Virus record (IMG/VR): IMGVR_UViG_2671180298_000006
Span: 1-8,131 of that record
Length of the DNA: 8,131 nucleotides
Origin: a virus
Taxonomy: Duplodnaviria > Heunggongvirae > Uroviricota > Caudoviricetes
Direction: 5' to 3' (one strand)
Shown: positions 1 through 989 of the stretch, one piece after another
Layout: every line of letters starts with the position of its first letter
Numbering within the stretch: the stretch's first letter is position 1
Position numbers and translations under genes: made by a program
The notes under the pieces: model-generated
Seen by the model: the letters and a program-made list of their open reading frames with translations, nothing else
What the model was told of the DNA's origin: nothing
Databases searched by the model: none

Positions 1-573
1 ATGTTTTGCGAAGAAAAAGTAGCTCAAATGGCTGCATACCTACTTCTTAAGCGAGGTGGGCGCATGGCATATCTGAAATTGATGAAGCTGCTCTATCTGT
101 CTAACCGCAAGTCGATTTTGAAGCATGGCAGGATGATCGGCGAAGATAGCCTTTACTCTATGAAATTTGGTCCAGTCATGTCGAATACGCTGAACTTGAT
201 TCGTGGTAAGGCTGAAGGTATTGGTGACTACTGGTACAACCTGATAGAGACGAACGGGCATGATGTGTTGTTGCGTTCAGATCCGAGGGAAATGGATGCA
301 GACGAGGTCTTTGATGAGTTGAGCCGTGCAGATATCCGGATTTTAGATGAAATCTATTCTCTGTATGGGCATATGAACCGATTTGATCTCGCAAACATGA
401 CGCATTTAGAAAGCGTTTGTCCAGAGTGGCACAATCCTGGCAATTCTCGTAAGCCTATAGACCTGAAAGAAATGCTGATCAGTGAGGGTAAAAGCGAGGA
501 TGAGGCTAATCGTATAATTGGCAAAATGGAAGAATCTCAGAAACTTAAGGAATTTTCTTTGCAATTATCATGA
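1..573 (+). CDS. Panacea-domain (DUF4065) protein, SocA/PanA-like putative antitoxin; 5' end may lie upstream of the window
   Basis: ORF track 1..573, 190 aa. The N-terminal region (…AYLKLMKLLYLSNRK…GEDSLYSMKFGPVMSN…) matches the conserved Panacea/DUF4065 pattern as I remember it (KLxKLLYy…GPV). TGA stop at 571-573 overlaps the ATG of the next gene (ATGA). The ORF begins at window position 1, so the true start is uncertain. Confidence 0.6.
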   Translation: MFCEEKVAQMAAYLLLKRGGRMAYLKLMKLLYLSNRKSILKHGRMIGEDSLYSMKFGPVMSNTLNLIRGKAEGIGDYWYNLIETNGHDVLLRSDPREMDADEVFDELSRADIRILDEIYSLYGHMNRFDLANMTHLESVCPEWHNPGNSRKPIDLKEMLISEGKSEDEANRIIGKMEESQKLKEFSLQLS

Positions 574-989
574 CGGATTATCAGCCATACAGGAAAGGAA
601 CTGTGCTTGCCCCAACTGGGCCATGCAATCATCTTCATGTGATTTGTAATGATCCTGTTTATTACCCCGTTAACGATTGTTATTGTGTTTTAGTTGTTAA
701 TATTTCTAGTATCAAGGATGGTGTCCCCCACGATCCGTCTTGCGTCTTGAATTCTGGTGATCATCGCTTTATCAAGCATCCAAGTTATGTTGTTTACGCT
801 GAAGCTATAATTTGGCGAGTAGATAACATGGTTAGAAAGCAGCGATCGGGTGAGATTTCCGTTCATGATGATATGCCAGAAGCTACATTCAATAGAATTC
901 TGGACGGTTTTGATATATCTGATGAAGTTACGCCAAAGAACCTTAAATTTAAAAATAAATATTGCGTATCATCTATTGATGATGAGTAA
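570..989 (+). CDS. Hypothetical 139-aa protein, translationally coupled to the Panacea gene; candidate toxin/effector partner
   Basis: ORF track 570..989. The ATG at 570-572 overlaps the upstream stop by 4 nt (ATGA), the classic coupling seen in two-gene TA operons. Cys/His-rich N-terminal half (CNHLH, CYC, GDHRF); no family recognised by eye. G+C is lower than in the repressor and tail-fibre parts of the window. Confidence 0.5.
   Translation: MTDYQPYRKGTVLAPTGPCNHLHVICNDPVYYPVNDCYCVLVVNISSIKDGVPHDPSCVLNSGDHRFIKHPSYVVYAEAIIWRVDNMVRKQRSGEISVHDDMPEATFNRILDGFDISDEVTPKNLKFKNKYCVSSIDDE

What the first reader, a model, noticed from the sequence alone, without database searches (positions are those of the whole stretch)
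1..989. Panacea (DUF4065) protein translationally coupled to an unrecognised 139-aa partner: candidate PanA-PanT-type toxin-antitoxin or phage-defence module
The first ORF carries the Panacea/DUF4065 signature, a domain described as a promiscuous antitoxin that neutralises unrelated toxin domains. Its stop overlaps the start of the next ORF by 4 nt (ATGA), the usual architecture of type II TA operons. The partner has no family I can recognise and carries Cys/His clusters that could bind metal. The pair sits at the edge of a prophage and is lower in G+C than the repressor and tail-fibre parts, consistent with accessory cargo. If real, the partner may be a new toxin or effector domain.
Basis: partly seen in the sequence, partly recalled or inferred. 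Interest (0 to 1): 0.75.

Follow-up and report, generated by a model that had tools for sequence, protein, structure and literature searches.

The report
Prophage PanA–PanT toxin–antitoxin gene pair
This is a real two-gene toxin–antitoxin cassette (a Panacea-domain antitoxin and a MazF-shaped toxin) at the end of a decayed E. coli prophage, but the toxin family was already catalogued in 2022 and one member tested, so it is an ordinary new member of a known kind.

Summary
ORF1 (1-573) is a Panacea/DUF4065 protein (Pfam 67.9 bits against a cut-off of 25.7). Its stop overlaps the ATG of ORF2 (570-989) by 4 nt.

The pairing is conserved. All 24 related loci from alpha-, beta- and gammaproteobacteria that had upstream DNA carry a Panacea gene directly upstream. 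So do 4 of 5 sampled distant relatives.

The partner is not a new toxin domain:
- Its 56%-identical homologue WP_101821906.1 is listed by accession in toxin cluster T6 of Kurata et al. 2022, annotated "EndoA/PemK/MazF-family RNases".
- The Pseudomonas moraviensis member of T6 was shown there to be toxic, neutralised and bound by its PanA, and to block protein synthesis.

The cassette lies about 250 bp from the dusA attachment site. It is 100% identical in two sequenced coliphages and occurs in 208 of 5,426 complete E. coli genomes.

Three things remain open: a phage-defence role; the chemistry of a near-invariant His/Asp/Cys/His set that canonical MazF lacks; and toxicity of this E. coli copy.

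Verdict: new member of a known kind, low interest.

The parts
1..573 (+). panA: 190-aa antitoxin with a stand-alone Panacea (DUF4065) domain and no N-terminal extra domain. The window starts exactly at its ATG.
   Evidence: Pfam PF13274 at 67.9 bits against a cut-off of 25.7. RefSeq annotates it as 'Panacea domain-containing protein'. The homologous upstream genes in 21 of 21 scanned loci also hit PF13274.
79..411 (+). Part of panA covered by the Pfam Panacea model (residues 27-137). Residues 138-190 form a C-terminal extension conserved within this PanA subfamily (E142, W143, I153 invariant).
570..573 (+). ATGA overlap: the panT start codon (570-572) overlaps the panA stop codon (571-573). 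No Shine-Dalgarno motif lies at the usual distance, so translation probably depends on coupling (inferred).
   Evidence: Sequence read directly. The same 4-nt overlap occurs in 11 of 24 related loci; the others have a 1-nt overlap or gaps of up to 27 nt.
570..989 (+). panT: 139-aa toxin of PanT cluster T6, with a predicted MazF/PemK-like SH3 barrel plus C-terminal helices. Near-invariant residues are H21, D55, C58, H65, S72 and Y76, plus H23 and C26 in close relatives.
603..605 (+). Alternative GTG start used by NCBI's PGAP annotation (128-aa product). Judged wrong.
   Evidence: PGAP coordinates. N-terminal residues 1-11 are conserved at the protein level with synonymous codon changes.
1029..1202 (+). 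ORF3: 57-aa protein of unknown function (PHROG 2741) with a GGAG ribosome-binding site. It probably shares the transcript but is not part of the conserved module.
   Evidence: It is absent next to the pair in Kosakonia and Pluralibacter. DNA 1-1250 matches 565 E. coli genomes, whereas the pair matches 208.
1221..1246 (+). Intrinsic terminator-like hairpin (GAAAACCCGCC-TTTA-GGCGGGTTTTT) with an A-run before and a T-run after. It closes the panA-panT-ORF3 unit and faces the convergent PrtN/excisionase-like gene (1250-1531, minus strand).
   Evidence: Terminator scan on the identical locus L001 at 10221-10246; sequence.

Best explanation
The two genes form a PanAT type II toxin-antitoxin module of the published T6 class, carried as accessory cargo by a dusA-integrating lambdoid phage.

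How it most likely works:
- PanT is a ~130-aa protein with the MazF/PemK fold. When free, it shuts down protein synthesis, most probably by cutting RNA (inferred).
- PanA, a stand-alone Panacea-domain protein made from the same transcript just before PanT, binds PanT directly and keeps it inactive (shown for another T6 pair, inferred here).
- The 4-nt ATGA overlap ties PanT translation to PanA translation (inferred).
- The cassette sits about 250 bp inside the prophage's left attachment site, downstream of the displaced host dusA promoter, so it is probably expressed in the lysogen (inferred).

The likeliest biological roles are exclusion of other phages by abortive infection and/or retention of the prophage. 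Both are untested.
For: Shown here:
- The Panacea HMM hit.
- The overlap and the correct start codon.
- A Panacea gene directly upstream of a PanT homologue in 24 of 24 informative loci from alpha-, beta- and gammaproteobacteria, and in 4 of 5 sampled relatives of only 25-40% identity; the fifth is cut by the contig end.
- Location next to attP/attL in an intact phage and in a lysogen.
- The same pair sits between the left genome end and the portal gene of the P2-like Pseudomonas phage Sirocco. In E. coli P2-like phages the equivalent cos-proximal region is a documented defence hotspot (PMC9122126).

From the literature (PMC8832971):
- Dataset S1 places WP_101821906.1 in toxin cluster T6, labelled 'EndoA/PemK/MazF-family RNAses' by HHpred. 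That accession is exactly my locus L006 homologue, which is 56% identical to ORF2.
- The Pantoea septica LMG 5345 pair, my locus L007, is also in T6.
- The T6 pair of P. moraviensis is toxic, rescued by its PanA, co-purifies with it, and specifically inhibits 35S-methionine incorporation.
- Phage Sirocco's PanA begins with the same ten residues (MIFSEQKVAQ) that the paper quotes for the P. moraviensis PanA. Its PanT is 48% identical and its PanA 46% identical to the window's proteins.
Against: - No experiment exists for this E. coli/coliphage copy. In the same paper several predicted PanAT pairs, including a MazF-like one, were not toxic in E. coli.
- I could not show sequence-level homology to MazF. 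No PemK_toxin Pfam hit appeared for 46 + 132 family members even at permissive thresholds. There were no PDB hits with family profiles. hhalign against a MazF profile gave a probability below 1%.
- The MazF catalytic Arg is not evidently present. The only collinear (but insignificant) alignment puts the invariant H21-L22 opposite H28-R29 of E. coli MazF. RNase activity is therefore an inference.
- No known defence-system model matches.
Confidence: 0.8

Rival explanations
1. It is the same PanAT module, but PanT is not a MazF-type mRNA interferase. The family-wide H21 / D55 / C58 / H65 / S72 / Y76 set would form a different active site on the MazF scaffold: a His-based nuclease, a Cys-His-Asp triad, or a metal centre. 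The toxin would then hit translation through another target or chemistry.
For: - These residues are near-invariant in 136 close relatives and in 132 distant relatives.
- Canonical MazF has no such set, and no PemK_toxin HMM signal exists in the family.
- L22, which falls opposite the catalytic R29 of MazF in the only collinear alignment, is invariably Leu.
Against: - S46/S47 are always Ser/Thr/Cys and fall opposite MazF T52/T53, which fits a MazF-like site.
- HHpred in PMC8832971 calls the T6 representative a MazF-family RNase, and it inhibits translation as MazF does.
- The 3-D positions of the conserved residues could not be inspected, because the tools do not return model coordinates.
Confidence: 0.2
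2. PanT is a CcdB-like gyrase poison rather than an RNase. The two toxin types share one fold.
Against: - The validated T6 toxin specifically blocks protein synthesis in metabolic labelling, which is not the pattern expected of a gyrase poison.
Confidence: 0.05
3. In E. coli the pair is not a working toxin-antitoxin system. ORF2 is harmless at natural levels, and PanA has another phage-related role.
For: Several computationally predicted PanAT pairs, including an E. coli prophage pair of cluster T1 and a Flavobacterium MazF-like pair, were 'not toxic' when tested.
Against: - Both ORFs are intact and 98-100% conserved in 206 genomes and two phages.
- The gene order is conserved down to about 25% identity.
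- The pair is kept in a prophage that has lost most of its genome.
- A member of the same toxin cluster is validated.
Confidence: 0.1
4. Neutralisation works as in SocAB (type VI): PanA acts as an adaptor that hands the toxin to ClpXP for degradation, rather than inhibiting it by binding.
For: SocA is the founding Panacea protein, and the Pfam family is named SocA_Panacea.
Against: - The NCBIfam SocA equivalog scores 13.5 bits against a cut-off of 190.
- The partner has the MazF fold and is not SocB.
- Kurata et al. conclude that PanA generally neutralises by direct binding, and they pulled down a stable PanA:PanT complex for the T6 pair.
Confidence: 0.05

Closest known systems
PanAT of Pseudomonas moraviensis (PanT cluster T6; Kurata et al. 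2022, PNAS, PMC8832971)
   Same: - A stand-alone Panacea antitoxin with no N-terminal extra domain sits first.
- A ~130-aa toxin follows, overlapping or abutting it.
- The toxin cluster is the same: a 56%-identical homologue of ORF2 is listed in T6 by accession.
- The PanA N-terminus is of the same type (MFCEEKVAQ here, MIFSEQKVAQ there).
   Different: - This copy is untested.
- It is carried by a lambdoid coliphage/prophage next to the dusA attachment site, whereas the P. moraviensis locus is flagged 'NotPhage' in Dataset S1.
- I could not obtain the P. moraviensis toxin sequence. Identity is about 48% to the nearest Pseudomonas proxy, phage Sirocco.
MazEF / Kid-Kis (PemIK) type II toxin-antitoxin systems
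   Different: - The antitoxin is a Panacea protein, not an AbrB/SpoVT-type MazE.
- No sequence similarity to PemK_toxin is detectable.
- The MazF Arg/Thr catalytic pair is not evident.
- The toxin has an extra C-terminal helix and a conserved His/Asp/Cys/His set.
SocAB of Caulobacter crescentus (type VI toxin-antitoxin)
   Same: The antitoxin carries the same Panacea domain.
   Different: It is not a SocA orthologue (13.5 bits against a cut-off of 190). The toxin is unrelated to SocB. Direct binding, rather than ClpXP-mediated degradation, is expected.
Accessory defence cargo in variable regions of temperate phages (P2-like hotspots; Rousset et al. 2022, PMC9122126)
   Same: The pair lies beside the attachment site in the lambdoid phage. 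In the P2-like phage Sirocco it lies between the genome end and the portal gene. In E. coli P2-like phages the equivalent cos-proximal region is a defence hotspot.
   Different: No anti-phage activity has been shown for this family. It has no PADLOC model, and that paper does not mention DUF4065 or Panacea.

Membership tests
PanA (Panacea/DUF4065 antitoxins) | Match to the Panacea HMM (Pfam PF13274) above the gathering score | tested here: met
   67.9 bits against a cut-off of 25.7, E = 1.8e-18, residues 27-137
PanAT two-gene module (criteria of Kurata et al. 2022) | [quoted passage not shown] | tested here: met
   4-nt overlap in the window. The arrangement holds in 24 of 24 informative loci across three proteobacterial classes and in 4 of 5 distant relatives.
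PanAT two-gene module (criteria of Kurata et al. 2022) | The conserved neighbourhood is no longer than three genes | tested here: met
   Flanking genes differ between loci. ORF3 follows the pair only in the Escherichia phages and prophages, and also occurs without the pair.
PanAT two-gene module | The partner is toxic, PanA neutralises it, and the two proteins form a complex | not testable with these tools
   Shown only for the P. moraviensis T6 pair in PMC8832971
PanT cluster T6 (Kurata et al. 2022, Dataset S1) | Clear sequence homology to proteins listed in the cluster | tested here: met
   WP_101821906.1, listed in T6, is the exact product of locus L006 and is 56% identical to ORF2. The Pantoea septica LMG 5345 pair (locus L007) is also listed, with the same -4 overlap.
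MazF/PemK/Kid endoribonucleases | Match to Pfam PemK_toxin (PF02452) or other detectable sequence homology | tested here: not met
   No hit at E <= 10 in 46 members and at E <= 0.1 in 132 diverse members. Profile against PDB sequences found nothing. hhalign probability was below 1%.
MazF/PemK/Kid endoribonucleases | SH3-like barrel fold of MazF/Kid/CcdB | tested here: met
MazF/PemK/Kid endoribonucleases | Catalytic Arg and Thr (R29/T52 in E. coli MazF) | tested here: inconclusive
   The only collinear alignment is statistically insignificant. It pairs H21-L22 with H28-R29 and S46-S47 with T52-T53. The Ser/Thr position is conserved and the Arg is not.
MazF/PemK/Kid endoribonucleases | Sequence-specific RNA cleavage | not testable with these tools
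   Only inhibition of translation by another T6 member is published
SocAB (type VI toxin-antitoxin) | SocA equivalog (NCBIfam NF047745) paired with a SocB toxin | tested here: not met
   13.5 bits against a cut-off of 190. The partner has the MazF fold.
Known anti-phage defence systems (PADLOC-DB 2.0) | Match of either protein to a defence-system model | tested here: not met
   No hit at E <= 0.1 for PanA, PanT, ORF3 or the 277-aa ORF

The most novel reading that the evidence does not exclude
T6 PanT proteins are a large family of obligate PanA partners with no Pfam model: 3,361 clusters at 50% identity. The most novel reading is that they kept the MazF scaffold but replaced its Arg/Thr catalytic pair with a different centre built from the near-invariant H21, D55, C58 and H65. 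They would then act on translation by a chemistry or target unlike MazF. In that reading the coliphage-borne copy works in its native host as an abortive-infection defence, with the Panacea domain as the sensor that releases the toxin.
Probability: 0.2. Interest if true: 0.5.

Novelty: new member of a known kind. Interest (0 to 1): 0.2.

Why it matters
It matters little for discovery: the module type, the toxin cluster and its mode of neutralisation are published.

Its practical value is as a native-host model. This is a T6 PanAT pair carried by inducible coliphages (Lys8385Vzw, SKA5) and by 3.8% of complete E. coli genomes. It could be tested directly in E. coli against standard phage collections.

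Two open questions could be addressed that way. The first is whether Panacea-neutralised toxins are phage defences, with Panacea acting as the sensor, as proposed but not shown in PMC10440598. The second is what the conserved His/Asp/Cys/His set does on a MazF scaffold.

There is also an annotation point: RefSeq's 128-aa model of the toxin starts 11 codons too late.

Tried and rejected
- **Sequence link from PanT to MazF.** I tried Pfam at E <= 10 on 46 members and at E <= 0.1 on 132 diverse members. I also tried family profiles against all PDB sequences, hhalign against single MazF sequences, and hhalign against a 111-sequence MazF alignment built from my last protein search. All were negative, with probability below 1%. 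The MazF set was too narrow (58-100% identity), so that search bought little.
- **NCBIfam hits of PanT** to LL-diaminopimelate aminotransferase (17 bits against cut-offs above 500) and the Pfam ICMT hits (14 bits) were rejected as noise.
- **Zinc-finger reading of the Cys/His cluster.** This is weakened because H23 and C26 are not conserved in distant relatives, and C26 is Met in phage Sirocco.
- **RNA antitoxin or other RNA element.** No Rfam family reaches threshold anywhere in the window.
- **ORF3 as a third component.** Rejected because it is missing beside the pair in other genera and is far commoner than the pair in E. coli.
- **PanA structure.** No PanA relative has a solved structure detectable by sequence.
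- **AlphaFold database fold search.** The afdb50 library was unavailable.
- **Literature.** I found no paper testing this family or this E. coli locus for phage defence.
- **P. moraviensis toxin sequence.** I could not obtain it, so the link to the validated protein rests on the authors' clustering and on the Pseudomonas phage Sirocco proxy.

Full report
**What is in the sequence**

The window opens exactly at the ATG of a 190-aa ORF (1-573, + strand). A 139-aa ORF (570-989, + strand) follows, and its ATG overlaps the first ORF's TGA in the motif ATGA.

ORF1 matches Pfam SocA_Panacea (PF13274) at 67.9 bits against a gathering score of 25.7. RefSeq annotates the identical gene as 'Panacea domain-containing protein'.

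ORF2 matches nothing in Pfam, NCBIfam or PADLOC. Its only hit is PHROG 19071, of unknown function.

**Which start codon ORF2 uses**

NCBI's PGAP pipeline starts ORF2 at GTG 603, behind an AGGAAAGGAA stretch. The 11 residues upstream of that GTG are conserved in homologues. Their codons change synonymously: Arg-Lys-Gly is AGG AAA GGA, CGG AGA GGC, AGA AAG GGC or CGC AAA GGT in different genomes. A start codon sits at the equivalent place in every other locus compared.

The 'Shine-Dalgarno' stretch is therefore coding sequence.

**Is the pairing conserved?**

Searching one genome per species with the motif HLH[VI][IV]C[NS]DP gave 26 loci. They come from Enterobacterales, Methylococcales, Piscirickettsiaceae, Burkholderiales, Sphingomonadales, Rhodobacteraceae and others, at 30-87% identity to ORF2.

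In all 24 loci with enough upstream DNA, the gene directly upstream on the same strand is a ~190-aa homologue of ORF1. All 21 of these that I scanned hit PF13274.

The junctions are tight:
- 11 loci have the same 4-nt overlap.
- One has a 1-nt overlap.
- The others have gaps of up to 27 nt.

An exhaustive profile search found 3,361 clusters (at 50% identity) of ORF2 relatives at E <= 0.001, and 1,719 at E <= 1e-10. I looked up five members that are only 25-40% identical to ORF2. Four lie directly behind a SocA_Panacea gene, and the fifth is cut by the end of its contig. ORF2 therefore belongs to a large family of obligate PanA partners.

**What the partner is**

AlphaFold2, run on a 46-sequence alignment, gave a confident model: mean pLDDT 90.2 and pTM 0.83. 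It is a small beta-barrel followed by three helices.

All three structure searches point to the same fold:
- Foldseek against the PDB gives MazF-family toxins for all top 50 hits, with probability up to 1.00.
- Against viral models, the best hits are mostly 'PemK-like protein'.

At the sequence level I could not connect the family to MazF. No PemK_toxin hit appeared in 46 + 132 members. Family profiles found no PDB sequence. hhalign against a MazF profile was insignificant.

With the most diverse family profile, the insignificant hhalign alignment is nevertheless collinear over 99 columns. It pairs H21-L22 with H28-R29 of E. coli MazF, S46-S47 with T52-T53, and the helix at 104-116 with MazF's C-terminal helix. 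That fits the fold match, but it is a hint only.

**It is already in the literature**

Kurata et al. 2022 (PMC8832971) surveyed DUF4065 neighbourhoods, named the domain Panacea and grouped the partner proteins into 88 toxin clusters.

Their Dataset S1 lists cluster T6, annotated by HHpred as 'EndoA/PemK/MazF-family RNAses'. Its members include Pantoea septica LMG 5345 (overlap -4), 'Yersiniaceae bacterium 2016Iso4' (overlap -1), Pluralibacter gergoviae, Proteus vulgaris, Methyloprofundus and many others.

My loci L007 and L006 come from exactly those first two strains and show exactly those overlaps. An exact-sequence look-up shows that the L006 protein is WP_101821906.1, the accession listed as the T6 toxin. 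It is 56% identical to ORF2.

The T6 pair of Pseudomonas moraviensis was tested in that paper. The toxin stops growth, and its PanA rescues it. The two proteins co-purify, and the toxin specifically inhibits protein synthesis in metabolic labelling.

I could not retrieve that toxin's sequence, so I used a proxy. The P2-like Pseudomonas phage Sirocco carries a pair whose PanA begins MIFSEQKVAQ, the same ten residues the paper quotes for the P. moraviensis PanA. Its PanT is 48% identical and its PanA 46% identical to the window's proteins.

The follow-up NetFlax paper (PMC10440598) reports that stand-alone Panacea can neutralise toxins directly. It proposes, without proof, that the domain is a sensor.

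**Genomic setting**

The first 1,250 bases are 100% identical to E. coli CFS3273. There, a 105-bp remnant of the dusA 5' end lies 253 bp upstream of panA, beside zur and the yjbLM region.

In the inducible phage Lys8385Vzw the same cassette, with a 100% identical PanT, lies between the integrase gene and the PrtN/excisionase-like gene. Aligning the two upstream regions shows that the phage carries its own dusA-like 5' end. Identity becomes perfect from ...AATGCTCGATAGG onwards. The pair is thus the first gene set inside attL, about 215 bp after the stop of the truncated host dusA reading frame. No terminator is predicted in between.

A terminator-like hairpin follows ORF3 at 1221-1246. The likely transcription unit is therefore panA-panT-ORF3.

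The pair occurs in 208 of 5,426 complete E. coli genomes and is always chromosomal. PanT homologues also occur in Yersinia, Klebsiella, Vibrio and Pseudomonas phages.

In phage Sirocco the pair sits between the genome end and the portal gene. In E. coli P2-like phages the equivalent cos-proximal region is a known hotspot for defence genes (PMC9122126).

**Mechanism, and what is inferred**

Shown here:
- the domain identity of PanA;
- the conserved, overlapping gene pair;
- the MazF-type predicted fold;
- membership of cluster T6;
- the phage-borne location beside the attachment site.

Taken from published work on another member: toxicity, rescue, complex formation and inhibition of translation.

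Inferred:
- that this copy behaves the same way;
- that PanT is an endoribonuclease;
- that the ATGA overlap couples translation;
- that the module serves phage exclusion or prophage retention.

**The conserved His/Asp/Cys/His set**

Conservation points to something not described for MazF. Among 136 close relatives, H21 and H65 are invariant. H23, C26, C58, S72 and Y76 are each present in 135/136, and D55 in 133/136.

Among 132 relatives of 25-43% identity, H21, D55, C58, H65, S72 and Y76 remain more than 90% conserved, while H23 and C26 do not.

A His-based or Cys/His/Asp active site remains possible. I could not inspect residue geometry, because the tools do not return model coordinates.

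**Verdict**

The hope that the partner is a new toxin domain does not hold: it has a MazF fold and belongs to published cluster T6.

I rate it a new member of a known kind, with low interest (0.2). The residual value lies in an E. coli-native model for testing Panacea-controlled toxins in phage defence, in the unexplained conserved residues, and in correcting the RefSeq start codon.

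Noticed in passing
window 5475-8131: A cII-like gene (ymfL homologue, starting at 5475) loses its 3' end at about 5858 and runs straight into an internal part of the lambdoid tail-tip gene J (5860-8131, 55.5% G+C). Replication, lysis, head and most tail genes are therefore deleted. The prophage in this window is a cryptic remnant that still keeps an intact panAT.
   Followed up: partly
window 1568-2401 (- strand): A 277-aa ORF (260 aa in RefSeq) has only 29.3% G+C, the lowest in the window, and a hydrophobic N-terminal segment. 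It matches PHROG 14996 (unknown function) but no Pfam, NCBIfam or PADLOC family. It looks like another foreign accessory gene, possibly for exclusion or defence.
   Followed up: no
window 1029-1202 (+ strand): A 57-aa ORF3 (PHROG 2741, unknown function) with a GGAG ribosome-binding site lies between panT and the terminator. DNA 1-1250 matches 565 E. coli genomes, whereas the pair alone matches 208, so ORF3 and its flank travel independently of panAT.
   Followed up: partly
L001 8500-9010 and L028 2930-3441 (upstream of window base 1): The phage integrates in dusA and carries its own surrogate dusA 5' end. In the lysogen the displaced native dusA promoter and first ~35 codons point into panA, with no predicted terminator in between. 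A weak promoter-like site (TTGACC-17-TAAACT) lies about 130 bp upstream of panA. panAT may therefore be transcribed from a dusA-type promoter in both the phage and prophage states.
   Followed up: partly
window 603 (RefSeq protein WP_014640052.1): RefSeq/PGAP annotates the toxin from GTG 603 (128 aa), and the purine-rich stretch before it was probably read as a ribosome-binding site. Conservation shows the true start is ATG 570 (139 aa). Many database entries of this protein are therefore probably 11 residues short.
   Followed up: yes
protein cluster returned: In the 90%-identity protein collection, the PanA (190 aa) and PanT (139 and 128 aa) sequences of this locus were reported as members of one cluster of 541 sequences, together with a 232-aa variant. 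This looks like a clustering artefact and was not examined.
   Followed up: no
Kurata et al. 2022 Dataset S1, cluster T6: Several Pasteurellaceae T6 toxins are annotated 'terminase' in RefSeq. This is probably an inherited misannotation of a MazF-fold toxin.
   Followed up: no
L008 4998-5396 and L027 4989-5273: In Acerihabitans sp. KWT182 the PanT homologue lacks the conserved start codon. In the Bathymodiolus symbiont it is interrupted by a stop codon, while panA stays intact. These look like decaying toxin genes beside retained antitoxins.
   Followed up: no
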